Below, in pieces: positions 35,176 through 55,951 of a DNA stretch of 64,000 nt. The notes beneath the pieces were generated by a model. The model was not told the DNA's origin and ran no database searches. It was given only the letters and a program-made list of their open reading frames with translations. Position 1 is the stretch's first letter, and each line of letters opens with the position of its first letter. A program made the position numbers and the translations under genes. This DNA comes from a virus: positions 64,001 to 128,000 of IMG/VR virus record IMGVR_UViG_3300028045_000007; one strand, given 5' to 3'.

Positions 35176-35826
35176 ATGCTTGATCATGCAGAGACCATTT
35201 TGGATAATTATGGTCCACTCATCAAGAAGATTGCTAGGTCGGCTTGCTTCTCGTCTGCTACTATTGACATATTGGATTTGATTCAGGTTGGCGAGATCGC
35301 CGCACTGAGGGCAGTTAAGAAATATGATCCCTCGGCTGGTGCCACGATACGTTCATATGTAGCACGCTTGGTACGTCAAGATATTTATCGTGAGGCTGCC
35401 AGATTCCTTGGTGTGTTTACCGTGGATCCTCGCGTGACTAGCCTTGCAGCAAAAGCTAATCGCATGTCTCTAGATGGACACAGTGATGAAAGTATCGCTA
35501 CGGCTCTTGACGAGTCAAGTAGTTATGCACTGGACGCAGATCATGTACGAGATCTTCGGCTCGCGTACAGTCGTCGCCAGTACGTGGTTACCCAGGATGA
35601 CGATGCACTAGATGAGTCTGATGCAGATCAACACACCATTAAAGAACTACTAATAGAGATTGTACAGGATGAGCCGGATAAGATTATTCTAGACAATCGA
35701 ATCCTTGGCACCTCTTCGGTACGTGACATTGCACGCCTACTCTCGGTGTCGCCGCGACGAGTTTATGAGTTGGAAAACGATCTCAAGGATCGTATCAAAC
35801 ATGCAATCAAAGGGATGACTGAATGA
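35176..35826 (+). CDS. phage sigma-70-family factor
   Basis: Region 2 DLIQVG.IAALRAVKKYDPSAG..IRSY; C-terminal HTH SVRDIARLLSVSPRRV. Confidence 0.8.
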   Translation: MLDHAETILDNYGPLIKKIARSACFSSATIDILDLIQVGEIAALRAVKKYDPSAGATIRSYVARLVRQDIYREAARFLGVFTVDPRVTSLAAKANRMSLDGHSDESIATALDESSSYALDADHVRDLRLAYSRRQYVVTQDDDALDESDADQHTIKELLIEIVQDEPDKIILDNRILGTSSVRDIARLLSVSPRRVYELENDLKDRIKHAIKGMTE

Positions 35827-37634
35827 AAAAACGTATTCTATTTGTGGGCGAAGCCAGTAATCTAAGCACTGGGTTTTCGACATATTATCGAGAATTGATA
35901 CCTCGTCTAGTAGCCACGGGCAAATACGAGATTGCTGAGTTTGGGTGCTATGTGCGTCAGGACGACCCCGCAGTTCATAACTTTATCCAGGGCCGCTGGA
36001 AGTTTTATGGCGTCATGCCAATGTCCGAAGAAGAGAATCAGGTCTTCAATCAGCCGAATCCACACCCTCGTACTCGTGGACAGAATACTAACCAGTTTGG
36101 CGAGTATAAGTTCAACAGTGTTGTTGCTGATTTCAAGCCCGATATTGTAATTGATATTCGAGATTGGTGGATGCTTGAATACCAGGAACGCAGTGTCTTT
36201 AGACCTTGGTACAAATGGATCGTGATGCCAACCGTGGACGCAGAGCCACAAGACGAGAGTTGGGTTCAAACTTACGAGAATGCCAATATGGTTTTGGCAT
36301 ATTCCGACTACGGAGTACATACGCTACGTCGTCAAAGTCAACTCATGCCCAATGGTCGCCGCAAAATGAAGGTATTCCCTACGCCTATGCGGCCCGGCGT
36401 TGATCTTACAGTTTTCAAACCTATAGATAAAGCCGATACTCGTGAGTATTGGAATATGTCTAAAACCAATCCTGTAATTGGTACAGTAATGCGTAATCAA
36501 AGTCGTAAACTGTATCCAGACTTGATTGATGCTTTTTCACTCATGAAGAAGCGATACAAGGGTGTTGATGCTGTCGATAAGGCCGTACTCTTGATTCATT
36601 CGTCTTGGCCCGACAATCAGCATTCATTTGATTATCCACGTCATATGATGAGGCTTGAAACGTATGAATGGCTACCTCATTACAACAAGGGCATTCGTGG
36701 TAGTGTCTTGCAAACCATGCACTGTCACGCTTGTAAAGAACCATCTGTGACGTTTGCTATGAACCTTTATGGTAAACCCCTGCAAGATGGACGTATTAAG
36801 TTACCTTGTCCTCATTGTGGTGCGGTAGAAGCTTCGCCTCCGGGTACTGGCGGAGGATTTACTCGTGAACGACTAGCTAAACTATATAACCTCATGGATC
36901 TGTATGTACAATGCTCTATTTGTGAGGGCGATGGCATGCCGATCCAAGAAGCGAAGGCGTGCGGTGTGCCAGCACTCATGACAGATTACACGGCCATGCG
37001 TGAGAAGGGGCGTTTTCCAGACTATCCTCACTTTGAGGAACTCAAGATAACCGAAGACACATACACCTGTCCGAAGGGTGGCATGGTTGTAGATGTTGAG
37101 CGGTACTATTACGAGCCTGAAACTAGTTGTCGCCGAGCACATCCGTCAATCAGTGACCTAGCTGACAAGATGCATAAGGCTATCTCGGATGACGATCTTC
37201 TTGCCAAAATGTCCACCGAGGCCAGAGAGTGTGCCGAAGAGAACTACGACTGGGAGGAATTGTGGCAGCAATGGGAATATGTGCTGGACAACGTTGTGCC
37301 AATGGATAGATCAGAGACCTGGGATAGTCCTATCGTAGAACACGATGAAGTCAAGCCCGTGCCCATTCCTGACAATTTGAGCGACGAACAGTACGTGGAA
37401 TGGCTATACATTAATGTTCTCAAGTATCCTGTCGTAGACCCGGAGGGTGCAAAGACATGGATTCAACACCTACAACTCGGTGTGCCGCGTGAAAGACTCA
37501 TGGAGCAATTCGTTGCTATCGGTAACCAACAATCAGATGGCAGTAAAGTGCGTGATCAGATCCGTAGTCAGATGCTTCCACAGGGACATAGCGTAACGCC
37601 CGTGGCCAATAGACCAAAACAGGAGTTCATTTAA
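35823..37634 (+). CDS. GT-B (GT4-like) glycosyltransferase with Zn-ribbon insert and C-terminal DUF4214-like domain
   Basis: STGFSTY, PGVDL.VFKP, RNQSRK, EGDGMPIQEAKACGVP. Confidence 0.85.
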   Translation: MKKRILFVGEASNLSTGFSTYYRELIPRLVATGKYEIAEFGCYVRQDDPAVHNFIQGRWKFYGVMPMSEEENQVFNQPNPHPRTRGQNTNQFGEYKFNSVVADFKPDIVIDIRDWWMLEYQERSVFRPWYKWIVMPTVDAEPQDESWVQTYENANMVLAYSDYGVHTLRRQSQLMPNGRRKMKVFPTPMRPGVDLTVFKPIDKADTREYWNMSKTNPVIGTVMRNQSRKLYPDLIDAFSLMKKRYKGVDAVDKAVLLIHSSWPDNQHSFDYPRHMMRLETYEWLPHYNKGIRGSVLQTMHCHACKEPSVTFAMNLYGKPLQDGRIKLPCPHCGAVEASPPGTGGGFTRERLAKLYNLMDLYVQCSICEGDGMPIQEAKACGVPALMTDYTAMREKGRFPDYPHFEELKITEDTYTCPKGGMVVDVERYYYEPETSCRRAHPSISDLADKMHKAISDDDLLAKMSTEARECAEENYDWEELWQQWEYVLDNVVPMDRSETWDSPIVEHDEVKPVPIPDNLSDEQYVEWLYINVLKYPVVDPEGAKTWIQHLQLGVPRERLMEQFVAIGNQQSDGSKVRDQIRSQMLPQGHSVTPVANRPKQEFI

Positions 37635-37635
37635 T

Positions 37636-38895
37636 ATGAAACTACTACTCACTGGACCGCTCCTAGACTTCAGCGGCTTTGCTCATGCGTCGCGTGACAT
37701 CTTGCGTATGCTGCTCGAAAGCGACGAACTCGATATCGTAATCCGTCCCCTGCGGTATGATCAGCTAGATCCGGGGCAGGAGTTTGAGGTTCCGGATTGG
37801 ATGCAGCCGCTACTGGAAAAAGACCTCATGAATGTTGACATGGTATTGCAGATTACTACGTGCAACGTAGAGGCAGTACCGATCCCCGGCGTGGTCAATG
37901 GACTCTATACCTTTTTCGAGACCAATAGATTACAACCTAATTGGGCAGCTAAGGCTCAGGAATTTGACTTTCTAATTGTGCCGTCGCGATTCAACGCCGA
38001 GGCCCTTGGTTATTCTGGCGTGACCAAACCCGTCTTAGTTGCTGCTCCTCCGTGCGACGAGGACACGTACAAGCGTGAATATACTCCCTTTGAGATTGCA
38101 GACGTAGAGGGACGTACTGTATTCTATAATATCTGTCAGCTTAGTACTAAAAAAGGCATCGATGTTTTGCTGAGGGCATACTATGCGGCGTTTGCCGGTG
38201 CTCCGGATGACGTTTTGCTTGTTCTTAAGACGTATGTCGATATGCAGAATCGTCAAAATGATTTTGATATTGTAAAAGGGTACATTGAGGGTATCAAGGC
38301 ACGTTGTCGCATCCCGGTGGAGAAACTTCCCCCCGTATTACCTGTTGTGTATACCATGACAGATGATGAAATTCATGGCCTACACACTAGAGGCGACGCC
38401 TATGTTTGCTCCAGTCGTGCAGAGGGTTGGGGACTGCCTGTATTTGATGCAATGGCACATGGCAATACCGTAATTTCGCACGACAAGAGTGGTCTGGGAG
38501 ATTTCGTGTCTCGTGAAAATTGCTTGCTTTATGGTGGCACACCCTCGTTCTTCTATGATATGCCACATCCGGACCCCTTGCTCTTTACAGGTATTGAGCA
38601 ATGTCTTGAGCCCTCACCAGTTGAATTGGCTTTGACCATGCAGCAGTTTCACTTGCTTCGTAAGGGTAACGAGAGCGACGAGCTAGACGAAGCCCATCAA
38701 GAACAATGGAGTGCTGTATTGCAGCGACGCGAGAATGCTGCACAGGTTGGTCAACGCTTTGACTATCGCAACATTAGTGGCAAAGTTGTTACACAGCTTT
38801 TGGCGGCACTTAAGTCTTGGAAAGAGACAGGTGTGGTCAGTTATGATGCAACCGCAGAAGGTACCGTAGTAGGTAGTCTAGAGGATCAACTATGA
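37636..38895 (+). CDS. GT4-like glycosyltransferase
   Basis: SGFAHASR, KKGIDVLL, SRAEGWGLPVFDAMAHG. Confidence 0.88.
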   Translation: MKLLLTGPLLDFSGFAHASRDILRMLLESDELDIVIRPLRYDQLDPGQEFEVPDWMQPLLEKDLMNVDMVLQITTCNVEAVPIPGVVNGLYTFFETNRLQPNWAAKAQEFDFLIVPSRFNAEALGYSGVTKPVLVAAPPCDEDTYKREYTPFEIADVEGRTVFYNICQLSTKKGIDVLLRAYYAAFAGAPDDVLLVLKTYVDMQNRQNDFDIVKGYIEGIKARCRIPVEKLPPVLPVVYTMTDDEIHGLHTRGDAYVCSSRAEGWGLPVFDAMAHGNTVISHDKSGLGDFVSRENCLLYGGTPSFFYDMPHPDPLLFTGIEQCLEPSPVELALTMQQFHLLRKGNESDELDEAHQEQWSAVLQRRENAAQVGQRFDYRNISGKVVTQLLAALKSWKETGVVSYDATAEGTVVGSLEDQL

Positions 38896-39929
38896 ATAAT
38901 CAACCCCTATATGTTCCGCAGATGCAGTCTATTGCGGACTGTGTAAATAAGCCCGTGCGTATTGTGCAATGTATTCAAATGCACAACGAGGAGGAGTTCG
39001 CATCACTTGTGCTTGCCTCCCTCTATGACGAGGTAGACCGCATCCTCGTCATAGAAGGGGCAGTTGAAAATAGACCTAACTCCACAGAGGATGGACACTC
39101 TATTGATAGCACGAAAGAGATTTTGGCTGACTTTAAAGCCAATCATGACCCCGACAACAAAGTCGTAATCATCTCTATCAATAAACACTGGAAGAACCTA
39201 GAGGAGATGAAGCAAGCATTCCTAGATATGTCATTTCCGGGCGACTGGATTCTTATCAATGACGCTGACGAGTTCTATCGCCCAGAAGATATTCGTCGCT
39301 TGCGGCGAGCGATCGATCTAAATCCTCACGCCTGTGAGTTTGTGCCTAACTTCCTACACTTCTATGGCGACATCTTCCACGTTGCTGTGCCCGGTCCCGA
39401 ATGGCAACCGCAGCACCAGAGGTTCTTCAAGTTTGTGCGTGGCATGAAATACAACTCTCACCCAGTTGTGACCGATCCCGCTGGCCACTGTACATATTTC
39501 TCTCTACACTACCAACATCGTAGAGTGATGCTCAACGATTTCTGGATCTACCACTATGGTTATGCTCGCCGCAACATGAAAGCAATCATGACCGACAAGC
39601 AAGAGTACTACAAAGGGGAACTCGCTAAGCATGACGGTGCAGACAAGAAGTTCGACCAGAAGGTACAGGATTGGATGGACGGGACCGAGCCGGTGCTGGA
39701 GTTTGACGGACAACATCCGGCCATTTTTGAAGCCAAACCGGGCGTGCCGTTGCCAAGCCTAATGGTGCCTATGGACCACGAGCTAAACGTGGTTGGTAGC
39801 TGGAAGGACGATCCGTTTTACAGCAAAGTACTTGCTGGAGAAGAATACGGCAACATTTACCTATGTATGACGGGTAGGGCACAACCACACATAGAACACT
39901 ACCACAATGGTATGGAGATACAACAATGA
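38892..39929 (+). CDS. GT2-like glycosyltransferase
   Basis: HNEEE, S.DST, WILINDADE (DxD), HYGY. Confidence 0.8.
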   Translation: MNNQPLYVPQMQSIADCVNKPVRIVQCIQMHNEEEFASLVLASLYDEVDRILVIEGAVENRPNSTEDGHSIDSTKEILADFKANHDPDNKVVIISINKHWKNLEEMKQAFLDMSFPGDWILINDADEFYRPEDIRRLRRAIDLNPHACEFVPNFLHFYGDIFHVAVPGPEWQPQHQRFFKFVRGMKYNSHPVVTDPAGHCTYFSLHYQHRRVMLNDFWIYHYGYARRNMKAIMTDKQEYYKGELAKHDGADKKFDQKVQDWMDGTEPVLEFDGQHPAIFEAKPGVPLPSLMVPMDHELNVVGSWKDDPFYSKVLAGEEYGNIYLCMTGRAQPHIEHYHNGMEIQQ

Positions 39930-40258
39930 GACTACGTCATAAACTTGCGGCATTGCTCACTAGATGGGCACTCTGTCTTGATCCCACCAACGCTACTATA
40001 CGTCGTGCGGCACTTGAAGCACTCGACGCTCGTAATCTCGCACAAGAGAAGGAATTTAGCGATGGCTTTTCTCAGATCGATTGGGTCAAGAGAGACATCG
40101 AGGGTGGCAGGGAGGATTGTGATCACATGAACGTTCTGTGTGAGGTTCACGACATAGAAGATCGCCCATATCGTGTGTGTAGCCGATGCAGGGCTCGTGT
40201 ATATATTCCACGTGCAGAACACAAAAGAGGACTTATTCCGTTTGACGGCACAAAATGA
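39926..40258 (+). CDS. hypothetical protein
   Basis: ATGA-coupled; CDH...CSRC. Confidence 0.5.
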   Translation: MRLRHKLAALLTRWALCLDPTNATIRRAALEALDARNLAQEKEFSDGFSQIDWVKRDIEGGREDCDHMNVLCEVHDIEDRPYRVCSRCRARVYIPRAEHKRGLIPFDGTK

Positions 40259-40689
40259 ATTACACATACAAATACCCCCGCTACGACATCACGTGTGATA
40301 TTGCGTGTGTCGTTTGGAACTTTTACTCCAAACAGGCAACAGAGCTTCTACTGATTAAGCGTGGAGTTGAGCCTGACAAGGGCAAATGGGCGTTGCCGGG
40401 AGGACACCTTGATCCTGATGAACTCTTGATCGAGTGTGCCGCACGCGAACTACAAGAAGAAACGGGGCTAGTTGCTGATCTGCAACCTGTTCGTAACTTT
40501 GACACTATAGATAGGTCTCCAAACGACCGATGTATCTGTTGTCTTTTCATGGCAAAGTTTGACATCAGTAGACCAGAGGTGGTAGCGGGTGACGATGCCG
40601 TAGATTACAAGTGGATCAAGGCGGGAGACCTAGACGATATTGACTTTGCATTCGACTGCAAGGAAATGGCTAAGACTATACTACTATGA
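40255..40689 (+). CDS. Nudix hydrolase (ADP-ribose pyrophosphatase-like)
   Basis: WALPGG...E....AARELQEETG Nudix box; AGDDA, AFD. Confidence 0.9.
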   Translation: MNYTYKYPRYDITCDIACVVWNFYSKQATELLLIKRGVEPDKGKWALPGGHLDPDELLIECAARELQEETGLVADLQPVRNFDTIDRSPNDRCICCLFMAKFDISRPEVVAGDDAVDYKWIKAGDLDDIDFAFDCKEMAKTILL

Positions 40690-41624
40690 AGAAAGTACTG
40701 TACGTTGGCTTGAAATGGAATTACGGTAAGAAAGAGGAGGACACTTCCTTTGAATACCGTAACATTGAGGCGGGCATCAAGGAGTGTGCTGACGTTACCT
40801 GTTGGCATCCGGACGAACCAAGCATGTCCGAAGATGAGTTGCTAGAATTAGTCCCTAAGTTTGATTGTATCTTCCATACGGCGTTTAACGAGACTCTTGA
40901 CCTACCAGAGTCGGTAGCTCGCCTTGCCATGAGGATTGATATTCCTGTTGTGCAGTGGGACTGTGATGCGTCCTGGAGATTCCACAACTGGATCCTGCCG
41001 CATCGCAAGGATAGAGCGTCGCACTTTATTACTACTCACTCCTCTACGGTGGGGTGGTACGAGAAATGCGGTATGAACGTGATCAAGTCCCAGTGGGCGG
41101 GCTCTCCGATGTATGTTGGCAAACCAGATACTCCCAAGCTATACGACGTTGGCTTTGCTGGGCAAAAGCACGGCATTAGAACTCAGTTGATAGAGGTTAT
41201 GGCCAAGGCTGGCTTCGATGTCCATGTCTTTGGTCATTACTGGGAAGACTTTCCTAACTCTCATCCACATACACCGCAGCTTCAGCAGATGATTGATGTC
41301 TTGGACGCCTCCAAGATTTGTCTCAATCTGTCCAACCCGTGGCACGTTGGCACAATGCCTCAGATCAAGGGTAGACACTTTGAAATCCCCCAAGTTGGAG
41401 GCTTTCAACTGACAACGACTGCTGACAACCTTGACGAATACTTTGTTCCCGACAAAGAAATCATCGTCGTTCATTCTGCACCAGACCTAATTGAGCGTTC
41501 GCTGTACTATCTTGATCACGAAGATGAGCGGTTGGCTATCGCGAAGGCCGGTCAGGAAAGAGTGCTCCGTGATCATCAATGGAAACATAGGTTCGAGGAT
41601 ATCTTTAATGAGATTGGAATCTGA
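40686..41624 (+). CDS. CgeB-like glycosyltransferase
   Basis: YDVGFAG, SKICLN, KGRHFEIP..GGFQL, F.PDKEI, RDHQW. Confidence 0.82.
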   Translation: MKKVLYVGLKWNYGKKEEDTSFEYRNIEAGIKECADVTCWHPDEPSMSEDELLELVPKFDCIFHTAFNETLDLPESVARLAMRIDIPVVQWDCDASWRFHNWILPHRKDRASHFITTHSSTVGWYEKCGMNVIKSQWAGSPMYVGKPDTPKLYDVGFAGQKHGIRTQLIEVMAKAGFDVHVFGHYWEDFPNSHPHTPQLQQMIDVLDASKICLNLSNPWHVGTMPQIKGRHFEIPQVGGFQLTTTADNLDEYFVPDKEIIVVHSAPDLIERSLYYLDHEDERLAIAKAGQERVLRDHQWKHRFEDIFNEIGI

Positions 41625-49736: not shown

Positions 49737-50390
49737 ATGAATACTAAAGGACATAATCCATTTAAAGATACGCCCGACAATCATGATTTCATGACCGAGG
49801 AGCACGTCTCTGTTTTTCTTCGGAACCACAAGACAGGAGTTGATAATCTGGGACGACACATGCTGGTAGACATAGTTGCACGGTATGATAATCCCAGGGT
49901 GTTGGACATGGCATGTGGCACGTGTGTCAACTGGGATGTATTCAAACAACGCGGACTCAAGTGTCAATATGTTGGTTTAGATCGTACGACCAGTATGATT
50001 CTCGAAGCAGATAAACGCTATGGCACTGAGATCACCCTTCATGAAGGATATGTACAGCGTACAGGGCTACCTGATGACTTCGCCGACATAGCTATTATGC
50101 GACACATACTTGAGCATTTACAGGAGGGGTATGAGGATGCGATTAGAGAGGGGTTGCGTGTTGCCTCCAAGGAACTCGTTGTTGTTTTCTTCTTGACTCC
50201 TTCAAATAAGGATGAGGATGAAGTTAGTGAGTCCGAGCCAGATGAGAATGGCTGCACTTACTTCTGGAATACGTATAGTTGGTCCAAGTTTGCCGAGTTC
50301 GTTGCCACTTTGGGCGTACAGATGAAAGTTGGGCACGTTGTAACCCCTGGTGCCGCTCATGCTGACACGATTGTTCGACTAATCAAATGA
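49737..50390 (+). CDS. class I SAM methyltransferase
   Basis: VLDMACGT, YVGLD, RHILEH. Confidence 0.82.
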   Translation: MNTKGHNPFKDTPDNHDFMTEEHVSVFLRNHKTGVDNLGRHMLVDIVARYDNPRVLDMACGTCVNWDVFKQRGLKCQYVGLDRTTSMILEADKRYGTEITLHEGYVQRTGLPDDFADIAIMRHILEHLQEGYEDAIREGLRVASKELVVVFFLTPSNKDEDEVSESEPDENGCTYFWNTYSWSKFAEFVATLGVQMKVGHVVTPGAAHADTIVRLIK

Positions 50391-51229
50391 TCCCCGACGT
50401 TACGTACTTCATTCTCGACTACAATCCACGCTGTCAAGATCAGGCGAGTGGATATCTTGATGCGTGTATTCGTTCGCTGTATGCCAACCGCAACAGCAGC
50501 ATCACGAGCGAAGTGTACGTGATTGATCAAGGTAATGGTTTTACCGACTACAAGAATGCACTAGCCAACAAGTGTGCTGGCTATGGCTTTCACTTCGTTG
50601 GCCTGGACCACAACAAGGGCATTTCCGGCGGCATCAATCTGGCGGCTCGCCTAAGTCGCAGTCCGCACCTATGTCTAGTGACCTCAGATACGACATTCAC
50701 GCCCGAGCTTGATACAGTGCTTTTGGGAGAGCTAGAAGCACACGATGACATCTATCAAATAACGCCTTCTGTAGATAAAGGAGACATTCCGTATCAGGTG
50801 CAAGGATTCACAGATAGCAAGGATCCTATCCGTTGTGCTGTTCAAGAGCTTACTATTCAGTGCTGGAAAAGAGAAGTGTTTGACGTTATTGGCTACTGGG
50901 ATGAGCGATGGCTTGCTTGTTACGAGTCGGCAGACTATCCCCTGCGGTTATTTCTGACGGGGCGTTGCTCTGCGGCTATCACGCACAAGATTTCCTGCCA
51001 TCACGAGCACAATACTACCTATCACAATGGTTCCCTGGCGGACGCCTACGGTGGGCAGTTTGATCATGGGCCTCTACGTCATATGTGGGACGAGAAGTGG
51101 CCCGGCCTAGACTGGGACATGCTGTACGATCTGACTCAGTACAACGAAACCACGAGAGCCCGTCTTGCCGCCCAGTACTACCAAAACATCGCATTATCAT
51201 GGAACGCTCAGCAATCATCAGGCACCTGA
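50387..51229 (+). CDS. GT2 glycosyltransferase
   Basis: VIDQG, NKGISGGIN, IGYWDE..YESADY. Confidence 0.75.
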   Translation: MIPDVTYFILDYNPRCQDQASGYLDACIRSLYANRNSSITSEVYVIDQGNGFTDYKNALANKCAGYGFHFVGLDHNKGISGGINLAARLSRSPHLCLVTSDTTFTPELDTVLLGELEAHDDIYQITPSVDKGDIPYQVQGFTDSKDPIRCAVQELTIQCWKREVFDVIGYWDERWLACYESADYPLRLFLTGRCSAAITHKISCHHEHNTTYHNGSLADAYGGQFDHGPLRHMWDEKWPGLDWDMLYDLTQYNETTRARLAAQYYQNIALSWNAQQSSGT

Positions 51230-51777
51230 TCCGTGCATACGGCTTTCAGTCCTATCTCGAAATTGGCGTACGTGGTCGCGAGACCCTGAGTCAGATTGAT
51301 CTGTCCGTTGTGGACGGTGTCGATCCGAACGGCCAGGGCAACTATACCATGACCTCCGACGAGTTTTTCGAGTCCCATTGCAAGCGTAGTTATGATATAA
51401 TCTTTGTCGATGGACTACATTTGCATGAGCAGGCCAAAAAAGACATAGAAAATGCCCTGACGCATTTGAGCGACAACGGTATAATTGTAGTACATGACTG
51501 TCTTCCGGAAGAGGAGTGGCATCAGCTACGGGAAGGCATATCTGGGCGTCCCTGGAACGGAGACGTTTGGAAGGCTTTCGCGGATCTGCGATCCGAGAGG
51601 GCCGATCTTAGTATGTATGTTGTGGACACCGATTGGGGTTGCGGCATCATTAGACGTGGTTCTCAGTACCTCTACCCTCGTCCTGATGAGTGGACTTGGG
51701 GGTATTTCAAGCAGCATAGAGACAATATCATGAACGTAGTAACAGTAGAGGAGTTCCTTGGATATTCACAACCGTAA
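51199..51777 (+). CDS. class I SAM methyltransferase (Methyltransf_24-like)
   Basis: YLEIGV, GVDP, TSDEFF, DIIFVDGLH, GIIVVHDC. Confidence 0.82.
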   Translation: MERSAIIRHLIRAYGFQSYLEIGVRGRETLSQIDLSVVDGVDPNGQGNYTMTSDEFFESHCKRSYDIIFVDGLHLHEQAKKDIENALTHLSDNGIIVVHDCLPEEEWHQLREGISGRPWNGDVWKAFADLRSERADLSMYVVDTDWGCGIIRRGSQYLYPRPDEWTWGYFKQHRDNIMNVVTVEEFLGYSQP

Positions 51778-52273
51778 ATGGATCGAGGCGGTAGCCCCGC
51801 AGTACTCGCCTTTCAATCCCGATCAGAAGGTGCTGGAAATTGGCAGTTGGATTGCCCCAGGACAGGAAGAGATCGTGTGTCGCAAGACTATTGCTCCGCT
51901 CGTTGGAGAATACGTCGGATTGGACATGCAGGACGGCAATGGCGTTGATGTTGTATCGGACGCCAAGCTCATGCCGTTCTCTGATGAGCACTTTCATGTA
52001 ATCATCAGTACCGATTGCTACGAACATGTAGATTGGCCTCGTGAAGTGACGCACGAGGCTTATCGTGTTTTGAAGCAAGGTGGCGTGTTCTACCTGACGA
52101 CCGTGTTTGACTTTGAGATTCATGGTTATCCGGATGACTTCTGGAGGTTCACGCCACACTGCATTAGGCTTCTTCTTGAGGACGCTGGATTTGAAGCGGT
52201 AGAGGTGACGGGGTGCGGCGGACCACATGCAAAGCGTCCGTGTATCGTCAGAGGAATAGGTATCAAGCGATGA
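51758..52273 (+). CDS. class I SAM methyltransferase
   Basis: VLEIGS, YVGLD, EHV, RVLKQGG, HGYPDDFWRFT. Confidence 0.85.
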   Translation: MDIHNRKWIEAVAPQYSPFNPDQKVLEIGSWIAPGQEEIVCRKTIAPLVGEYVGLDMQDGNGVDVVSDAKLMPFSDEHFHVIISTDCYEHVDWPREVTHEAYRVLKQGGVFYLTTVFDFEIHGYPDDFWRFTPHCIRLLLEDAGFEAVEVTGCGGPHAKRPCIVRGIGIKR

Positions 52274-52803
52274 AGCTGAATCTGGCCAGCCACGGAGACA
52301 ATCGCGAGGGGTATGTGAACGTTGACTTCGATCACCCCGCCGCCGACCTGAAGGCAGACGTTACCGATTTGTTTACGATAGAAGATGAGTCAGTCGATGA
52401 GATCCTTGCCTTTCACATCCTAGAGCACTTCCGTGCTGGACATTACGAGCCGCACCTGTCCAATCCCCTCAATCCGAGAACAGTGATAGAGGCCCTGGCC
52501 GAGTGGAAGCGTGTCCTCAAGCCGGGCGGCAGACTGGAGATCAAGGTGCCTGACTTTGAGAAGGTCATTTGGCTTTTCCAGAACTTTCCCACGTGGTCTA
52601 GGAAGCCAGGTGGTAACGATCCATTCCCCGCATACTCTGACTGGCTTGTGTCCAATGGACAGCATCAGTGTATTTTCGACAGGCCAACCATGCTAAGCGT
52701 GCTACGGGCGGTCGGCTTTCGAGACATCAACTTTGTTGACTCGTCGCCCGAGGCAGTTGTCAATCGTGAAAACATAGAAATGTATGTAGTGTGTAGTAGA
52801 TGA
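52270..52803 (+). CDS. SAM methyltransferase-like protein
   Basis: KLNLA, GYVNVD, SVDEI.A.HILEH, RVLKPGG.LEI.VPD. Confidence 0.8.
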   Translation: MKLNLASHGDNREGYVNVDFDHPAADLKADVTDLFTIEDESVDEILAFHILEHFRAGHYEPHLSNPLNPRTVIEALAEWKRVLKPGGRLEIKVPDFEKVIWLFQNFPTWSRKPGGNDPFPAYSDWLVSNGQHQCIFDRPTMLSVLRAVGFRDINFVDSSPEAVVNRENIEMYVVCSR

Positions 52804-52837
52804 TCTTGAAATTGATCATATCGATCCCATGATAAAG
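52778..52837 (+). pseudogene. HNH endonuclease remnant
   Basis: Translates KCM*CVVDDLEIDHIDPMIK; compare KCFNCGNTERLEIDHHYP in 11467..12000. Confidence 0.5.
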
Positions 52838-52852
52838 GAAAACAATAGCGTA

Positions 52853-53824
52853 ATGAAAGTACTAATCACAGGAGCCCACGGCTTCGTAGGACATCACGTC
52901 GTCCGGGAGCTTGAAAAAGAGCATGAGCTTTTGACGCCTTCGCGTCGAGAGTTGAATTTACTGTACACGACAGATCCATGCGGAGATCCACTAAGGGAAA
53001 CTGAAGAGTACTTGAGGCGTAAGTCTGTAGATGCCATTGTGCATCTTGCGGCAACCTGCGGCGGCATTGGTATCAACAAAGACAACCCCGGCAAGTTCAT
53101 GTATGACAACCTACAGATGGGGATCAACGTGCTGGAGGCAGCACGCCTCGCGAACGTCTCAAAGGTTGTGGTACTCGGAACTGTTTGTGCCTATCCTAAG
53201 TTTACACCTATTCCTTTTCGAGAAAAAGACATTTGGAATGGCTATCCAGAAGAGACAAATGCCCCCTATGGCATAGCAAAGAAGACAGTCATGGAGATGG
53301 GTATTGCGTATTCGCGTCAGTATGGCATGAACATCACCAACCTCGTTCCTGTGAATATGGCGGGCGAGTGGGACAACTTTGACGAGTACAGCAGTCACGT
53401 GATCCCAGCACTGATCAAGAAGTTTGAGAACCCACACGGTACGGCCATACCCACCGTAGAACATGGTTACTACTGTGATCCCACGGTGGTGTTGTGGGGT
53501 ACTGGTTCTGCTTCACGCGAATTCCTATATGCTGGTGATTGTGCAAGAGCTATCGCGGTAGCTCTCGTGAAAAACACTGGTCCAGAACCAATCAACCTTG
53601 GTACCGGCAACGAAGTTACTATCAAGGATCTTGCGGAATTGGTAAAGCGGGTTGGTAAGTATGACGCCAATATCGTATGGGATCCTACGAAGCCAGATGG
53701 GCAGCCCAGACGTAGCCTAGACATTACAAGGGCACAGAATGTACTGAGGTGGAACGCTACCACTTCACTCTTTGAAACGGTACGTAGAACAATTGAGTGG
53801 TATAGAACAAATGGATCAGTATAG
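52853..53824 (+). CDS. fcl: GDP-L-fucose synthase (GDP-4-keto-6-deoxymannose epimerase/reductase)
   Basis: ITGAHGFVG, HLAA.CGGI, GTVCAYPK, PYGIAK, SHVIPALI, WGTG..SREFL, KPDGQPRR. Confidence 0.92.
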   Translation: MKVLITGAHGFVGHHVVRELEKEHELLTPSRRELNLLYTTDPCGDPLRETEEYLRRKSVDAIVHLAATCGGIGINKDNPGKFMYDNLQMGINVLEAARLANVSKVVVLGTVCAYPKFTPIPFREKDIWNGYPEETNAPYGIAKKTVMEMGIAYSRQYGMNITNLVPVNMAGEWDNFDEYSSHVIPALIKKFENPHGTAIPTVEHGYYCDPTVVLWGTGSASREFLYAGDCARAIAVALVKNTGPEPINLGTGNEVTIKDLAELVKRVGKYDANIVWDPTKPDGQPRRSLDITRAQNVLRWNATTSLFETVRRTIEWYRTNGSV

Positions 53825-54296
53825 TACACATACAGAGCTTCTAAAGTTTTTGATGGACAACCTTGCCATCGAAACAGTTTTGGAGTTAGGCATGGGACAC
53901 TTCAGCACCCCGTTGTTTCGGAGCTATCCAGGCGTTAGTTTAGTTAGCCTGGACTCTGACATCAATTGGGTCAATCAATTCAGTCCCGGTCCTAATCACA
54001 CCGTTGGTGCCTACCCACTACTGGGGTTTGCTCGCAACGTGACTTGGTTTGATTTAGCTTTTGTTGATGGTAATCCAGCCAGCGAACGTGCCGCCTGTGT
54101 ACAAGAGCTTTTGCTCAAAACTAGACTGGTTGTAGCACATGACACGGGTCCAGAAGACAATTGGAATTATCACTATGACGAGATCGTATTACCAGAAGGC
54201 TTTGTGCGTTTAGACTATACGAAAAAGTCACCGTGGACATCTGTTTTCACTGCTGACGCAGAAGTTATTGCTAAGGTACAAGAGTTCAATGGGTAG
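53811..54296 (+). CDS. methyltransferase-like protein
   Basis: VLELGMG.FST, DLAFVDG, VVAHD. Confidence 0.65.
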   Translation: MDQYSTHTELLKFLMDNLAIETVLELGMGHFSTPLFRSYPGVSLVSLDSDINWVNQFSPGPNHTVGAYPLLGFARNVTWFDLAFVDGNPASERAACVQELLLKTRLVVAHDTGPEDNWNYHYDEIVLPEGFVRLDYTKKSPWTSVFTADAEVIAKVQEFNG

Positions 54297-54927
54297 AAAA
54301 ATCTTCCTAGATGTCGGGTGTAATACTGGTCAGTCTCTTGAGGCTGCACTAGACCATGACTTTGATGTCGTCTATTGTTTTGAGCCGGTGATGGAGTATT
54401 GTCAGTCGTTACAGTCTGGCGTCTTGTCTTCTGATGTCGGTTCTGGCATTGCAGAAAGACCTTACGACCAAACCAGGGTGGTCATTTGTCCCTTTGGACT
54501 TTGGGTCAATACCGAGCGTATTTCTGTACATAGTCCTCACACAATGGCAGCGTCAGTGTTTGACGACCACCAGGACAGCGAGGGCGGCACCACAGAGTGT
54601 CAGTTTGTCAAGGCTTCCGAGTGGTTACGACATCACATCACCGACGACGATTTTGTTGTCATGAAAATGAATTGTGAGGGTAGCGAGTGTACCATTCTGG
54701 ACCATCTAATGGACAGTGATACTATACACTTGATCGATCACATTATGGTTGATTTTGATGCAATGAAGATTCCGTCCCAACGCCATAGACCGCAGCGTAC
54801 TATTTGGAACCTGAACAATCATGGTGTTGATTACGTGTTCGCCGAGGACGTTATGTGCGGGGCTACCCACCACGATCGTATTTGCTATTGGCTAAAAGAA
54901 AAGGTTGAGGAGATCAATGAACGATAA
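54289..54927 (+). CDS. FkbM-family methyltransferase
   Basis: FLDVGCNTG, YCFEP, VMKMNCEGSE. Confidence 0.8.
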   Translation: MGRKIFLDVGCNTGQSLEAALDHDFDVVYCFEPVMEYCQSLQSGVLSSDVGSGIAERPYDQTRVVICPFGLWVNTERISVHSPHTMAASVFDDHQDSEGGTTECQFVKASEWLRHHITDDDFVVMKMNCEGSECTILDHLMDSDTIHLIDHIMVDFDAMKIPSQRHRPQRTIWNLNNHGVDYVFAEDVMCGATHHDRICYWLKEKVEEINER

Positions 54928-55951
54928 AACAGCAATTGTTACTGGTATTACAGGACAGGACGGATTCTATCTCGCCCACTATCTACTCTCGTTGGGCTAT
55001 CGTGTCATTGGCGTAGTGCGTCGTACGTCCATGCCCACAGACTGTCGTTTACGTACGTTGCGTGGCAGCCCCAATCTACATCTGGTACAGGGAGACGTTA
55101 CTGACATTTCCAGTTTACAAAAGGCCGTGCGTGACTTTGCTCCCGATGAGTTCTATCACCTAGGGGCACAGAGTCACGTGGCTATGTCTTGGGAGTATCC
55201 CTTGGCCACCGCAGACATCACGGGTATTGGCGTACTCAACTGTCTAGAGGCTATTCATACAGAGAAGCCAGACTGTAGATTCTATTTTGCTGGCAGCAGC
55301 GAGCAATTCGGCAATTCGATCGGTAAGCCTATCGAGGGAGAGATTCAGAACTACCTCAATGAAGATTCGCCGATGCATCCCGAGTCTCCTTACGCCGTGA
55401 GTAAGGTTTTCGGATACAATATGACTAGAGTTTATCGTAGGTCGTTCGACATGTTCGCGTCCTGCGGTATTCTGTTTAACCATGAGTCACCGGTTCGAGG
55501 TGAAGAATTTGTGACTCGCAAAATTACGAGCCAACTGGCTCGTGTGAAGTGGGGATTACAAGAGTACGTTGAGCTTGGCAATATGGACGCCTGCCGTGAC
55601 TGGGGATTCGCTGGAGACTATGTGCGTGGTATGCACGCCATACTACAGCACGATGAACCAGATGACTTCGTTCTAGCGACTGGCGAAACCAATTCCGTCA
55701 AGACGTTTTTCCAGAGATGCTGCCAGTGGTTTGATTTAGATCCGGATGAGGTCTATAAGGTCAATCCAAAGTTCATGCGTCCCAAGGACATCAACGTACT
55801 ATTGGGCGATAGCTTGAAAGCACGCAGCACGTTGGGTTGGGAGCCCACTTGTGCGTTCGATCAACTAGTAGACAAGATGTGTCAGTACGACTATCATCTA
55901 CAGTCGCCAGATCCAGCTTATACCCGTCAAGCAGACGAGTTTCTATTTTAG
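54917..55951 (+). CDS. gmd: GDP-mannose 4,6-dehydratase
   Basis: TGITGQDG, AQSHV, SPYAVSK, GILFNHESP.RG..FVTRKI, LGN.DA.RDWG.A.DYV. Confidence 0.95.
   Translation: MNDKTAIVTGITGQDGFYLAHYLLSLGYRVIGVVRRTSMPTDCRLRTLRGSPNLHLVQGDVTDISSLQKAVRDFAPDEFYHLGAQSHVAMSWEYPLATADITGIGVLNCLEAIHTEKPDCRFYFAGSSEQFGNSIGKPIEGEIQNYLNEDSPMHPESPYAVSKVFGYNMTRVYRRSFDMFASCGILFNHESPVRGEEFVTRKITSQLARVKWGLQEYVELGNMDACRDWGFAGDYVRGMHAILQHDEPDDFVLATGETNSVKTFFQRCCQWFDLDPDEVYKVNPKFMRPKDINVLLGDSLKARSTLGWEPTCAFDQLVDKMCQYDYHLQSPDPAYTRQADEFLF

What the first reader, a model, noticed from the sequence alone, without database searches (positions are those of the whole stretch)
35823..55951. A ~20 kb phage-encoded glycan factory, probably an autonomous virion glycosylation system
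Seen: one co-oriented, largely translationally coupled island holds about 11 glycosyltransferases (GT4-like x4, GT2-like x4, CgeB-like x2, one DxD GT-A-like), about 6 SAM methyltransferases, both GDP-fucose enzymes (gmd, fcl), a nucleotidyltransferase, a Nudix hydrolase and an IMPDH/GMPR enzyme. I recognised no flippase, polymerase, undecaprenyl-phosphate transferase or multi-pass membrane gene, so it does not look like a seroconversion (gtrABC) or O-antigen locus. Established: chlorovirus PBCV-1 encodes GDP-mannose dehydratase and epimerase/reductase plus glycosyltransferases for its capsid glycans, and some mycobacteriophages glycosylate virion proteins with a few GTs. Inference: this phage builds a complex fucosylated, O-methylated glycan in the cytoplasm on its own virion proteins, on a giant-virus-like scale.
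Basis: partly seen in the sequence, partly recalled or inferred. Interest (0 to 1): 0.9.

Follow-up and report, generated by a model that had tools for sequence, protein, structure and literature searches.

The report
Conserved sugar-building gene block in marine phages
An uncultured 154-kb marine phage and a large family of its relatives carry a conserved 20-kb block of 11 sugar-transferring enzymes plus fucose-making and methylating enzymes and no membrane export parts; it most likely coats the phage's own tail proteins with sugars, but no chemistry shows this yet.

Summary
The gene content is confirmed. Window 35823-55951 is one gap-free, same-strand run. It holds 11 glycosyltransferases (4 GT4, 4 GT2, 2 CgeB-like, 1 DxD GT-A), 5 rather than 6 small-molecule methyltransferases, gmd, a probable fcl, and a CBS-less IMPDH/GMPR-like enzyme.

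Two corrections:
- The Nudix gene and the nucleotidyltransferase look like a NadM/NadD-type pair. All 25 relatives examined lack them.
- The system is not autonomous, because no sugar-1-phosphate nucleotidyltransferase is present.

New findings:
- The block is a core module of a large clade of 150-180 kb phages known only from metagenomes. The order is DnaE, sigma factor, lead GT4 ("GT1"), ten more GTs, a variable tailoring cassette, fcl, gmd.
- GT1 was found only on phage-sized contigs, is about as conserved as DnaE, and carries inteins at two sites in some relatives.
- The genome encodes no multi-pass membrane protein and no detected route to a glycosylatable DNA base.
- Ser-Gly-hydrophobic motifs are enriched 4.3-fold in virion-region proteins only. 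Three distant GT1-bearing phages also show a 2-3-fold excess; T5 and P-SSM2/4 show none and lambda only a small excess on low counts.

Virion glycosylation is the best reading (about 0.5) but is unproven. Host-surface remodelling, the usual reading for cyanophage sugar clusters (P-SSM2, S-SCSM1, S-SRM01), remains a rival.

This scan noted the same stretch before (e1-5784016), and two earlier follow-ups studied the Ser-Gly motif.

The parts
35176..35826 (+). Sigma-70/ECF-type sigma factor gene. It overlaps the first GT by 4 nt (ATGA) and leads the block.
   Evidence: TIGR02937 54.6 bits, above its cut-off of 42.9. Present at 36-58% identity in 22 of the 25 relative loci and partial in one more, and at the same position in four of the five extended relatives (not seen in G005).
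35823..37634 (+). GT1, the lead glycosyltransferase: a GT4-type retaining GT-B fold with an inserted Cys4 cluster (C301, C304, C329, C332) and a C-terminal DUF4214 domain.
   Evidence: Pfam PF00534 and PF13946. Alignment A2 has 73% mean column identity. AlphaFold model pLDDT 78.8; Foldseek matches GT4 enzymes such as sucrose-phosphate synthase, MshA and chlorovirus NY2A 3OY2. At least 1316 homologue clusters; among the 120 listed, longest contigs are 183 kb or less. Inteins at two sites in relatives. No tblastn match in 50,697 deposited phage records.
37636..38895 (+). GT4-like glycosyltransferase (419 aa).
   Evidence: PF00534 34 bits, PF13692 29 bits. Found in 25 of 25 relatives at 47-71% identity.
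38892..39929 (+). GT2 glycosyltransferase (345 aa).
   Evidence: PF00535 25.3 bits, just above its cut-off of 23.3. Found in 25 of 25 relatives at 54-77% identity.
39926..42186 (+). Strain-specific rearranged segment: a 110-aa ORF, a NadM-type Nudix (40255-40689), the CgeB-like GT (40686-41624, displaced from its usual place after the 221-aa GT2), and an HxGH nucleotidyltransferase (ends at 42186; the true start is probably downstream of 41491).
   Evidence: Nudix PF00293 66 bits; its best NCBIfam hits are the NadM Nudix domain and NtrR, while GDP-mannose mannosyl hydrolase scores only 20 bits. Nucleotidyltransferase motif GSFNPVHDAH; NadD hits are weak. The 110-aa ORF, Nudix and nucleotidyltransferase are absent from all 25 relatives. 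CgeB-like PF13524 103 bits. Atlas structural neighbours are spore maturation proteins and Maf_flag10_N fusions.
42183..43040 (+). GT2 glycosyltransferase (285 aa).
   Evidence: PF00535 45.7 bits. Found in 24 of 25 relatives.
42977..43417 (+). Small ORF of unknown function (146 aa or fewer).
   Evidence: No Pfam or PHROG family. Weak homologues in five relative loci, of which two are near-identical duplicates.
43414..44484 (+). GT4-like glycosyltransferase (356 aa).
   Evidence: PF13692 38.5 bits, PF00534 33 bits. Found in 25 of 25 relatives.
44465..45063 (+). Two small ORFs (126 aa and 72 aa), function unknown.
   Evidence: The 126-aa ORF matches phrog_34511 (unknown function). No Pfam family.
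45035..46222 (+). GT4 glycosyltransferase (395 aa) with both lobes recognised.
   Evidence: PF13692 48.6 bits, PF00534 44 bits, PF13439 weak. This protein was the query that retrieved the 25 IMG/VR relatives at 52-76% identity.
46203..46943 (+). DxD GT-A-like glycosyltransferase of a family seen mainly in viruses (true start is M30 of the longest ORF).
   Evidence: Alignment A1 shows invariant R143-D144-(C)-D146-S147-R148. No PDB sequence match. Atlas pTM 0.91; neighbours are Uroviricota 'hexosyltransferase' clusters, and structural neighbours include bacterial TPR-fused proteins. A 36% homologue lies inside the gmd/fcl/NodZ/FkbM island of Synechococcus phage S-SRM01.
46940..47995 (+). CBS-less IMPDH/GMP-reductase family enzyme.
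   Evidence: PF00478 314 bits. NCBIfam cannot separate IMPDH from GMPR. Best PDB match is 3R2G at 313 bits. The same slot in G001 and G005 holds a longer paralogue only 32% identical.
47992..48177 (+). 61-aa ORF that fills the only apparent gap.
   Evidence: Read directly from the sequence; 4-nt overlaps on both sides.
48174..49091 (+). Second CgeB-like glycosyltransferase (305 aa).
   Evidence: PF13524 51.6 bits. Found in 23 of 25 relatives.
49069..49734 (+). GT2 glycosyltransferase (221 aa).
   Evidence: PF00535 77.7 bits.
49731..50390 (+). Class I SAM methyltransferase (219 aa).
   Evidence: PF08241 42 bits, PF13649 41 bits. Conserved at 40-78% identity in relatives.
50387..51229 (+). GT2 glycosyltransferase (280 aa).
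   Evidence: PF00535 39.4 bits.
51085..52803 (+). Three methyltransferase genes: 51085-51777 (Methyltransf_24), 51758-52273 and 52213-52803 (Methyltransf_11/23). This is the start of the variable tailoring zone.
   Evidence: Presence is patchy among relatives.
52829..53824 (+). Probable GDP-L-fucose synthase (fcl).
   Evidence: PF01370 176 bits. The best NCBIfam hit is NF047922 at 256 bits, below its cut-off of 500. Found in 5 of 5 extended relatives at 50-68% identity.
53772..54296 (+). 174-aa ORF, unknown function, in a second variable slot between fcl and gmd.
   Evidence: No family in Pfam, NCBIfam or PHROGs. The slot holds different genes in relatives.
54268..54927 (+). FkbM-family methyltransferase.
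   Evidence: TIGR01444 38.2 bits, just above its cut-off of 37.7; PF25276.
54905..55951 (+). GDP-mannose 4,6-dehydratase (gmd); 3' end of the block.
   Evidence: PF16363 348 bits; TIGR01472 327 bits. Found in 5 of 5 extended relatives at 62-77% identity, always at the 3' end.
9990..10619 (+). Satellite FkbM methyltransferase inside the tail operon.
   Evidence: TIGR01444 48.4 bits. Not found in four of five relatives. In G005 its 41% homologue lies inside the GT block.
7925..23931 (+). Candidate acceptors: tail-tip, baseplate and fibre proteins rich in Ser-Gly-hydrophobic motifs. Further motif-rich proteins lie just outside the window at genome 60964-63487 and 129333-135571.
   Evidence: The enriched proteins show 3-22 motifs each against 0.7-4.4 expected. 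The virion set totals 88 against 20.4 expected, and five control motifs sit near 1x.

Best explanation
The block is a phage-borne, cytoplasmic glycan assembly line whose most likely acceptors are the phage's own tail, baseplate and fibre proteins.

Proposed course (shown steps marked; the rest is inferred):
1. The block sits in one gap-free same-strand gene run with the replication genes and a phage sigma factor (shown). No promoter or terminator signal above chance lies within the run (shown), so I infer co-transcription before or as the structural proteins accumulate.
2. gmd and fcl convert host GDP-mannose to GDP-L-fucose (enzyme families shown, chemistry inferred). Other donors are host UDP-sugars. 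In relatives, extra NDP-sugars come from cassette-encoded kinase, HAD phosphatase/mutase-type and nucleotidyltransferase genes (shown as genes).
3. Eleven soluble GTs build an oligosaccharide directly on protein serines, probably those in Ser-Gly-hydrophobic motifs, without a lipid carrier (inferred). GT1 may be the initiating or organising enzyme, given its conservation and its Cys4 and DUF4214 additions (inferred).
4. Five or six SAM methyltransferases O-methylate the sugars. In relatives TylF-type methylases and a sulfotransferase do the tailoring, which gives strain-specific outer decoration on a conserved core.
5. Virions leave by lysis, so no export step is needed.

The IMPDH/GMPR-like enzyme probably adjusts the guanine nucleotide pool that GDP-sugar use draws on (inferred).
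For: - Gene content and coupling.
- No TM segment in any island protein and no multi-pass membrane protein in the 99%-complete genome.
- Core status: all 25 IMG/VR relatives keep the 5' GT set in the same order at 47-79% identity, similar to DnaE at 63-76% in G001-G004 and a tail protein at 54-65% in G001-G005. gmd and fcl are present in 5 of 5 extended relatives. Base composition is uniform.
- GT1 has at least 1316 homologue clusters. The 120 best lie on contigs of 183 kb or less, and the only hits in 185,579 species genomes are MAG contigs of 22-158 kb carrying phage genes, apart from one weak partial hit (23% identity over 183 residues, E 4e-5) on a 2.5-Mb Phycisphaerales contig that I did not examine.
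- 7 of the 120 best GT1 homologues carry inteins, at two different invariant motifs. Inteins usually sit in conserved, indispensable genes.
- SG[VILFM] in virion-region proteins: 88 observed against 20.4 expected. Rest of the proteome: 57 against 44.5. Five control motifs sit near 1x.
- The same excess appears in three distant GT1-bearing phages (92/33.6, 65/29.9, 54/18.4), concentrated in tail proteins after the tape measure.
- There is no excess in T5 (13/12.6), P-SSM2 (161/127) or P-SSM4 (92/80); lambda shows 12/6.2 on low counts.
- Atlas leads: structural neighbours of the DxD GT-A are TPR-fused bacterial proteins, and those of the CgeB-like GT are spore maturation proteins and Maf (flagellin glycosylation) N-domain fusions.
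- A tail-operon FkbM gene has its homologue inside a relative's GT block.
Against: - No chemistry: nothing shows that any virion protein is modified.
- The block lies between the replication and nucleotide-metabolism genes, not among the structural genes. A strong terminator at 23956-23986 separates it from the tail operon.
- The promoter-like motif seen before structural genes is absent from the block.
- The motif and the island are both inherited vertically in one clade, so their co-occurrence is phylogenetically confounded. No clade member lacking the island was found as a contrast.
- The motif could be purely structural. In S-SRM01 the excess comes from tandem 12-aa fibre repeats.
- GT folds say nothing about the acceptor.
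- Peripheral GTs acting on host lipid-linked intermediates also lack TM segments.
- The Atlas neighbours carry no alignment statistics.
- No recognisable fucosyltransferase family (GT10, GT11, NodZ) is present in the block.
Confidence: 0.5

Rival explanations
1. Host envelope remodelling. The soluble phage GTs extend host lipid-linked intermediates (for example Und-PP-sugar primed by the host's own WecA/WbaP) at the inner face of the membrane. Host flippases or ABC transporters then export the altered O-antigen or capsule. This would block superinfection or stop progeny sticking to debris. It is the usual reading for cyanophage sugar clusters.
For: - Published interpretation of comparable clusters in P-SSM2 (PMC1079782), jumbo cyanophages (PMC7824862), S-SCSM1 and S-SCSM2R.
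- S-SRM01 carries gmd, fcl, an FkbM gene and a homologue of the DxD GT-A in such a cluster.
- Many GT4 and GT2 enzymes of O-antigen pathways are peripheral and have no TM segment.
- The strain-variable tailoring cassette resembles O-antigen diversification.
- A preprint reports that a DUF4214 protein binds O-antigen.
Against: - No priming enzyme, flippase, polymerase, ligase or any multi-pass membrane protein in the genome.
- The GT core is a stable, syntenic clade-wide module evolving about like DnaE, not a sporadic accessory cluster.
- GT1 has no clear cellular homologue in 185,579 species genomes, which does not fit recent capture from host surface-polysaccharide loci.
- Inteins in GT1 suggest indispensability.
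Confidence: 0.22
2. Another cytoplasmic acceptor. The block would make a soluble or storage-type methylated oligo- or polysaccharide (like the mycobacterial polymethylated polysaccharides), a glycolipid or small-molecule glycoside, or would glycosylate host proteins as a takeover device.
For: - An all-soluble enzyme set with many O-methyltransferases.
- The methylmannose polysaccharide mannosyltransferase 7QSG is among the fold matches of GT1.
- The position among early or middle metabolic genes.
Against: - No hydrolase, acyltransferase or carrier typical of those pathways was recognised.
- Eleven GTs with a variable outer cassette suggest an exposed structure under diversifying pressure rather than an internal metabolite.
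- It does not explain the virion-specific Ser-Gly-hydrophobic excess.
Confidence: 0.15
3. DNA hypermodification. The GTs would glycosylate modified bases in phage DNA to evade restriction, as in T-even phages.
For: - The block lies between DnaE and the dUTPase/RNR/ThyX genes, and a purine-nucleotide enzyme sits inside it.
- Diverse viral GTs are reported to hypermodify DNA (Pyle et al. 2024, as cited in PMC12619734).
Against: - No ThyA-like hydroxymethylase, no C5 DNA methylase and no TGT/DpdA; ThyX is present for ordinary dTMP. The Tet/JBP search had no working control.
- The methyltransferases are small-molecule or sugar types (FkbM, Methyltransf_11/23/24), not DNA methylases.
- To my knowledge no described DNA glycan needs anything like eleven GTs.
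Confidence: 0.05

Closest known systems
Sugar-gene clusters of marine and freshwater cyanomyoviruses (P-SSM2, S-SCSM1, S-SCSM2R, S-SRM01)
   Same: - Lytic aquatic phages with gmd, fcl, many GTs, FkbM-type methylases and NDP-sugar genes, and no export genes named in those reports.
- S-SRM01 has a 36% homologue of the DxD GT-A and a 46% gmd.
- 13 GTs are reported in S-SCSM2R and 24 sugar genes in P-SSM2.
- The function is untested there as well.
   Different: - Those clusters are sporadic between related myoviruses and are read as host-surface modifiers.
- Here the GT core is a syntenic, clade-wide module of siphovirus-like phages. It is led by a GT4 (GT1) found only on phage-sized contigs that has no match in 50,697 deposited phage records, is coupled to a sigma factor gene, and contains no NodZ, GT10 or GT11 fucosyltransferase.
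- P-SSM2 and P-SSM4 lack the Ser-Gly-hydrophobic excess.
Mycobacteriophage virion glycosylation (Che8, Corndog, Myrna; Freeman et al. 2023, as summarised in PMC12363180 and PMC12619734)
   Same: Phage-encoded soluble GTs are reported to glycosylate the phage's own capsid and tail-tube proteins in the host cytoplasm. This is the only demonstrated phage precedent I know of for the proposed mechanism.
   Different: - Those systems are reported with only a few GT genes (two are described for phage Maravista, PMC11256854), and the glycans sit at the C-termini of capsid and tail-tube subunits. The original paper could not be read here.
- Here there are 11 GTs plus nucleotide-sugar and methylation genes, placed away from the structural genes, with a putative internal sequon in tail-tip and fibre proteins.
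- GT1 has no match in the phage collection searched, which holds many mycobacteriophage records.
Chlorovirus PBCV-1 and giant-virus glycosylation (PMC4691112)
   Same: - Virus-encoded GDP-mannose dehydratase and epimerase/reductase, cytoplasmic GTs without signal peptides, and sugar methylation.
- Among the Foldseek matches of the GT1 model, the one with the highest TM-score is a chlorovirus NY2A GT4, 3OY2 (TM by target 0.78).
   Different: - Those are eukaryotic NCLDVs with N-linked capsid glycans.
- This is a tailed bacteriophage, and the structural match is at generic GT4 level (14% identity).
Bacterial direct protein glycosylation in the cytoplasm: spore crust maturation (CgeB family), Maf flagellin glycosylation, and autotransporter heptosyltransferases
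   Same: - Soluble GTs modify Ser/Thr of a surface protein before it leaves the cytoplasm, with no lipid carrier.
- Two island GTs carry the CgeB-type domain PF13524. Their Atlas structural neighbours include spore maturation proteins and Maf N-domain fusions.
   Different: - No Maf, TibC-type or OGT (GT41) family member is present.
- The resemblance is at domain and fold level only. What I state about those bacterial systems is from general knowledge and was not tested here.

Membership tests
Wzx/Wzy or ABC-dependent O-antigen/capsule locus; gtrABC seroconversion | Initiating phosphoglycosyl transferase (WbaP/WecA type, integral membrane) | tested here: not met
   A Kyte-Doolittle scan of all 920 ORFs of 50 aa or more found no real gene with more than two hydrophobic segments. 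No such Pfam family appeared among the island proteins.
Wzx/Wzy or ABC-dependent O-antigen/capsule locus; gtrABC seroconversion | Flippase (Wzx/GtrA), polymerase (Wzy) or ABC-2 permease | tested here: not met
   No multi-pass membrane protein in the 154-kb genome, which is 99% complete by CheckV. This rests on a hydropathy scan, not a dedicated TM predictor.
Phage DNA glycosylation systems (T4-like hmC, hmU or TET-dependent) | An enzyme that makes a glycosylatable base (ThyA-like hydroxymethylase, or C5-methylase plus TET/JBP) | tested here: not met
   PF00303 and PF00145 are absent, with working controls. ThyX is present. PF12851 is absent, but its control did not ring, so that part is inconclusive.
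Phage DNA glycosylation systems (T4-like hmC, hmU or TET-dependent) | 7-deazaguanine or other base-exchange route (DpdA/TGT) | tested here: not met
   PF01702 is absent; the control rang in 14 of 14 genomes.
Mycobacteriophage-type virion glycosylation | Glycans demonstrated on virion proteins | not testable with these tools
   Needs mass spectrometry or glycan staining of virions.
Mycobacteriophage-type virion glycosylation | Sequence relationship of the GTs to those of glycosylating actinophages | tested here: not met
   GT1 has no tblastn match at E of 1e-5 or better in 50,697 phage records. The CgeB-like GT matches only two gut-phage fragments. The other GTs were not compared.
Mycobacteriophage-type virion glycosylation | GT genes placed with the virion structural genes | tested here: not met
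   The block lies between the replication and nucleotide-metabolism modules. A terminator at 23956-23986 separates the tail genes. Only a strain-specific FkbM gene sits in the tail operon.
Giant-virus (chlorovirus-type) autonomous glycosylation | Virus-encoded GDP-mannose 4,6-dehydratase and GDP-fucose synthase | tested here: met
   gmd: PF16363 348 bits. fcl: best NCBIfam hit 256 bits. Both score below NCBIfam equivalog cut-offs.
Giant-virus (chlorovirus-type) autonomous glycosylation | Independence from host nucleotide-sugar supply and host glycosylation machinery | tested here: inconclusive
   No host-type membrane machinery is needed or encoded. However, no NTP_transferase (ManC-type) is present, so GDP-mannose must be host-made.
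Cyanomyovirus sugar-gene clusters | gmd, fcl, several GTs and FkbM-type methylases in a lytic aquatic phage | tested here: met
   compared with the S-SRM01 locus and with PMC9602691.
Cyanomyovirus sugar-gene clusters | Sporadic, accessory distribution among close relatives | tested here: not met
   The core GT set is present and syntenic in all 25 relatives and recognisable in distant phages with GT1 at 33-36% identity. Only the 3' cassette varies.

The most novel reading that the evidence does not exclude
A large, globally distributed clade of uncultured 150-180 kb aquatic siphophages depends on a sequon-directed virion O-glycosylation system. In this reading a lead GT4 found only on phage-sized contigs (Cys4 insertion, DUF4214 domain, intein-invaded) starts a conserved glycan on serines of Ser-Gly-hydrophobic motifs in tail and fibre proteins. 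A swappable cassette of NDP-sugar, methyl- and sulfotransferase genes then diversifies its outer layer. This would be the first such system in phages outside the actinophages and the first with a defined sequon.
Probability: 0.3. Interest if true: 0.85.

Novelty: new variant of a known kind. Interest (0 to 1): 0.62.

Why it matters
Virion glycosylation in phages has so far been shown only in a few mycobacteriophages with a few GTs. The large sugar-gene clusters of marine phages have stood unexplained since 2005.

This block gives a clean test case:
- It is a core module, not an accessory one.
- It has a lead enzyme found only on phage-sized contigs.
- It comes with a candidate sequon in defined tail proteins.
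- It has natural variants in a tailoring cassette.

If the acceptor is the virion, sugar coats would become a general feature of abundant marine phages. That would bear on adsorption, particle stickiness, grazing and decay in the sea, and would supply new soluble protein-glycosylating enzymes. If the acceptor is the host envelope, it would show a lytic phage rebuilding its host's surface with a conserved eleven-enzyme pathway.

Tried and rejected
- DNA similarity of the whole block to deposited phages: no match.
- Profile of the DxD GT-A family against PDB sequences, and the CgeB-like GT against PDB sequences: no match.
- Consensus promoter and terminator scans inside the block: counts at chance level.
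- The TTAGTGTAWTWTA motif noted before structural genes does not occur in the block.
- Fold search with the GT1 model: only generic GT4 enzymes, which says nothing about the acceptor.
- DUF4214 elsewhere in the genome, as a possible docking partner: only in GT1.
- Nampt/NAPRTase, to complete an NAD salvage reading of the Nudix and nucleotidyltransferase pair: absent.
- Tet_JBP search: no hit, but the control was silent, so this is not evidence.
- Sequencing-run search: the DNA is held by seawater and marine metagenome runs; no RNA holder is listed, so nothing can be said on expression.
- Independent-lineage test in S-SRM01: two fibre proteins show a 5x motif excess, but it comes from tandem 12-aa repeats and they are not homologous to this phage's proteins, so I do not count it as support.
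- P-SSM2 against P-SSM4 contrast: both are near expectation.
- Host assignment from the MAG bins that hold relatives (Hydrogenophaga, SAR202, Verrucomicrobiales, Flavobacteriales, Omnitrophota): mutually inconsistent, so rejected as binning noise.
- The Freeman et al. 2023 paper is not held and could not be read.

Full report
SETTING

The window is bases 64001-128000 of a single 154,408-bp virus record (GC 49.5%, CheckV 99% complete). The source is a seawater metagenome. The record is a tailed phage:
- a 1727-aa tape measure protein (2738-7921);
- a UvsX-like recombinase, DnaB helicase, primase and exonuclease (24941-29979);
- a 1102-aa protein at 31254-34562 that I take to be a DnaE-type polymerase. 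I did not run a family search on it, but it matched many phage records over its full length.

No deposited phage is similar at DNA level.

From 35176 to 56623 every gene is on the + strand. Thirteen of 28 junctions are 4-nt start/stop overlaps, and no gap exceeds 25 nt. A 61-aa ORF fills the one apparent gap.

Pfam and NCBIfam give:
- four GT4-like genes (35823, 37636, 43414, 45035);
- four GT2 genes (38892, 42183, 49069, 50387);
- two CgeB-like PF13524 genes (40686, 48174);
- five methyltransferases (49731, 51085, 51758, 52213, and the FkbM gene at 54268);
- a probable fcl (52829) and gmd (54905);
- a CBS-less IMPDH/GMPR-family enzyme (46940).

The eleventh GT is 46203-46943. An alignment of 18 homologues shows an invariant SRDCDSR (DxD) motif. 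The ESM Atlas places it among GT-A-like 'hexosyltransferase' clusters found mainly in viruses.

The methyltransferase count is 5 with family support, not 6.

TWO CORRECTIONS

First, the Nudix protein (40255) best matches the Nudix domain of NadM and the ADP-ribose-responsive NtrR at about 55 bits. GDP-mannose mannosyl hydrolase scores only 20 bits. The neighbouring nucleotidyltransferase has an HxGH-type motif (GSFNPVHDAH) and weak NadD hits. Both genes, and the 110-aa ORF before them, are missing from all 25 relatives. They sit in a rearranged segment that also displaced one CgeB-like gene from its usual position. They are a strain-specific insert, not core glycan enzymes. A sugar-phosphate activating role for the nucleotidyltransferase cannot be excluded.

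Second, the genome has no NTP_transferase-family enzyme. GDP-mannose must come from the host, so the system is not autonomous.

WHAT THE SURROUNDINGS SHOW

The block lies between the replication genes and a nucleotide-metabolism set: dUTPase 58227, FAD oxidoreductase 59100, ribonucleotide reductase 60271, ThyX 62580. A strong terminator at 23956-23986 separates this long same-strand gene run from the tail operon.

Directly upstream, and overlapping GT1 by ATGA, is a sigma-70/ECF-type sigma factor gene. It is found in most relatives.

No island protein has a hydrophobic 19-residue window. No genuine gene in the genome has more than two. The phage therefore encodes no priming transferase, flippase, polymerase or ligase.

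A CLADE-WIDE CORE MODULE WITH A VARIABLE TAIL

A search with the 395-aa GT4 found 25 IMG/VR contigs of up to 183 kb. All 25 keep GT1, the 419-aa GT4 and the 345-aa GT2. Nearly all keep the rest of the 5' set, at 47-79% identity.

Extending five relatives gave one common order:
1. DnaE, a small ORF, the sigma factor (not detected in G005);
2. GT4(603), GT4(419), GT2(345), GT2(285), GT4(356), GT4(395);
3. the DxD GT-A, then the IMPDH-like gene;
4. CgeB-like, GT2(221), CgeB-like;
5. methyltransferase(s);
6. a variable cassette of 0-10 genes;
7. fcl, then gmd;
8. usually three conserved unknown genes (the middle one was not found in G005).

Identities of the GT core match those of DnaE (63-76% in G001-G004) and a tail protein (54-65% in G001-G005).

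The variable cassette holds different tailoring and sugar-activation genes in each phage:
- G002: a PRK-family kinase, a class II aldolase, a TylF-type O-methyltransferase, a double nucleotidyltransferase and another, weakly matching, CgeB-like GT.
- G004: a HAD enzyme, a nucleotidyltransferase, a Methyltransf_24 and a sulfotransferase.
- G005: methyltransferases, a HAD enzyme, a nucleotidyltransferase, DUF7796 and homing endonucleases.

The picture is a conserved glycan core with strain-specific outer chemistry.

THE LEAD ENZYME

GT1 is the best conserved island protein, with 73% mean column identity. Its features:
- It folds as a GT4-type GT-B (pLDDT 78.8). Fold matches are sucrose-phosphate synthase, MshA, PimB' and a chlorovirus NY2A GT.
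- It has an inserted, invariant Cys4 cluster.
- It has a C-terminal DUF4214 domain, the only one in the genome.
- A preprint reports that another DUF4214 protein binds O-antigen sugar. That is a lead for glycan binding and nothing more.

GT1 has at least 1316 homologue clusters in public data. The 120 best all lie on contigs of 183 kb or less and carry only generic names. In one genome for each of 185,579 prokaryote species, the only hits are MAG contigs of 22-158 kb that also carry phage genes, apart from one weak partial hit (23% identity over 183 residues, E 4e-5) on a 2.5-Mb Phycisphaerales contig that I did not examine. On five of the six more distant of these contigs (GT1 at 33-36% identity), GT1 again follows DnaE and heads a chain of 230-370-aa genes.

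Seven of the 120 best homologues are about 950 aa long and carry LAGLIDADG, Hint or intein-splicing domains. The insertions lie at two different invariant motifs: after DIRDWWM, and inside VMRNQ|SRKLYPDLID. As general knowledge, inteins persist mainly in highly conserved, indispensable genes. This fits a function the phage cannot do without.

WHICH ACCEPTOR?

Sequence cannot show it, so I weighed indirect evidence.

(a) DNA. There is no ThyA-like hydroxymethylase, no C5 methylase and no TGT/DpdA. ThyX is present for ordinary dTMP. The methyltransferases are small-molecule types. The Tet/JBP search had no working control. DNA is unlikely.

(b) Host envelope. This is the standard reading of cyanophage clusters, and peripheral GTs need no TM segments. 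But those clusters are described as sporadic among related phages. This core is stable, has no clear cellular homologue, and evolves like the replication genes.

(c) Virion proteins. I re-tested the motif reported by earlier agents.
- Genome-wide, SG[VILFM] occurs 147 times against 69 expected.
- In proteins of the virion regions it occurs 88 times against 20.4. In the rest it occurs 57 times against 44.5.
- GS[VILFM], TG[VILFM], SA[VILFM], [VILFM]GS and SG[charged] are all near 1x in both sets.
- Three distant GT1-bearing phages, whose structural proteins are only 23-40% identical, show the same excess (92/33.6, 65/29.9, 54/18.4). It is concentrated in tail proteins after the tape measure. 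In G007 the portal-, terminase- and capsid-type proteins, and the tape measure proteins, are not enriched.
- Controls: T5 13/12.6, lambda 12/6.2, P-SSM2 161/127, P-SSM4 92/80.

Two island GT families also have bacterial look-alikes linked to direct protein glycosylation. The DxD GT-A resembles TPR-fused proteins. The CgeB-like GT resembles spore maturation proteins and Maf N-domain fusions. These are leads without statistics.

Finally, an FkbM gene sits inside this phage's tail operon. It is not conserved there, and its homologue in G005 lies in the GT block.

CAVEATS

- Motif and block are co-inherited in one clade, so their association is confounded. I found no member lacking the block.
- The motif might be structural. 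In S-SRM01 a similar excess in two fibre proteins is due to tandem 12-aa repeats.
- The block is not placed with the structural genes, and the promoter-like motif seen before those genes is absent from it.
- No known fucosyltransferase family is recognisable.

VERDICT

The most likely reading (about 0.5) is a cytoplasmic, lipid-carrier-free line that puts a fucose-containing, O-methylated glycan on tail, baseplate and fibre proteins. It would use host GDP-mannose and UDP-sugars, and its outer layer would vary between strains. The rivals:
- host-surface remodelling through host carriers, about 0.22;
- another cytoplasmic acceptor, about 0.15;
- DNA, about 0.05.

Compared with what is known, this is a new variant of a known kind. 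Phage sugar clusters with gmd and fcl are known, and so is phage virion glycosylation. A conserved, sigma-coupled, eleven-GT core led by an intein-bearing GT4 found only on phage-sized contigs, paired with a candidate sequon and a swappable tailoring cassette, has not to my knowledge been described.

Noticed in passing
L002:100-2982 (GT1 homologue of a relative); proteins P0018, P0026, P0056, P0059, P0105, P0106, P0109: Seven of the 120 best GT1 homologues carry inteins (LAGLIDADG_3, Hint_2 or Intein_splicing domains). They sit at two different invariant motifs of the glycosyltransferase. To my knowledge inteins are rarely reported in glycosyltransferases.
   Followed up: partly
window 35176-35826: A phage sigma-70/ECF-type sigma factor gene overlaps the first glycosyltransferase by ATGA. 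It keeps that position in most relatives, between DnaE and the GT block. It may be the switch to late transcription.
   Followed up: partly
window 39926-42186: A strain-specific insert holds a NadM-type Nudix hydrolase and a NadD-like HxGH nucleotidyltransferase. No Nampt/NAPRTase exists in the genome. It may be a split NAD-salvage or ADP-ribose-handling pair, and it displaced a CgeB-like GT from its usual position.
   Followed up: partly
window 9990-10619; G005 = L035:15552-16148: The FkbM methyltransferase in the tail operon is absent from four of five relatives. Its 41% homologue in G005 lies inside the GT block, so this gene moves between the two modules.
   Followed up: yes
L033:6927-7673 (-), relative G004: A sulfotransferase (PF00685) sits in the variable tailoring cassette of one relative. 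It hints at sulfated as well as methylated glycans within the clade.
   Followed up: no
window 46940-47995; G001 (L027:15680-16945) and G005 (L035:11151-12983): The IMPDH/GMPR slot inside the GT block holds a CBS-less 351-aa form here. Two relatives instead hold longer paralogues (421 and 610 aa) that are only 32% identical. Which direction of purine interconversion is catalysed remains open.
   Followed up: partly
L040:5462-9635 and L041:5404-9628 (distant GT1-bearing contigs): In distant relatives the DnaE-like polymerase is split into two ORFs of about 545 and 520 aa. Small ORFs lie between them.
   Followed up: no
Synechococcus phage S-SRM01 (MW015081.1) 216169-222335: Two adjacent fibre proteins are built of tandem 12-residue repeats such as S-N-A-S-G-V-S-T-F, which gives a five-fold Ser-Gly-hydrophobic excess. 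They lie about 11 kb from that phage's own gmd/fcl/GT/FkbM island.
   Followed up: partly
window 55961-58036: Three genes (220 aa unknown, 247 aa with an HTH and a weak HNH-like match, 227 aa unknown) follow gmd in four of the five extended relatives; G005 lacks a match to the middle one. They may belong to the block, but they match no glycan family.
   Followed up: partly
L035:4871-5536 and L036:8544-9053 (relative G005): Homing-endonuclease-type genes (a weak NUMOD1 match, and HNH_3) are inserted between GT genes of a relative. Together with the inteins, this points to heavy traffic of selfish elements through the block.
   Followed up: no
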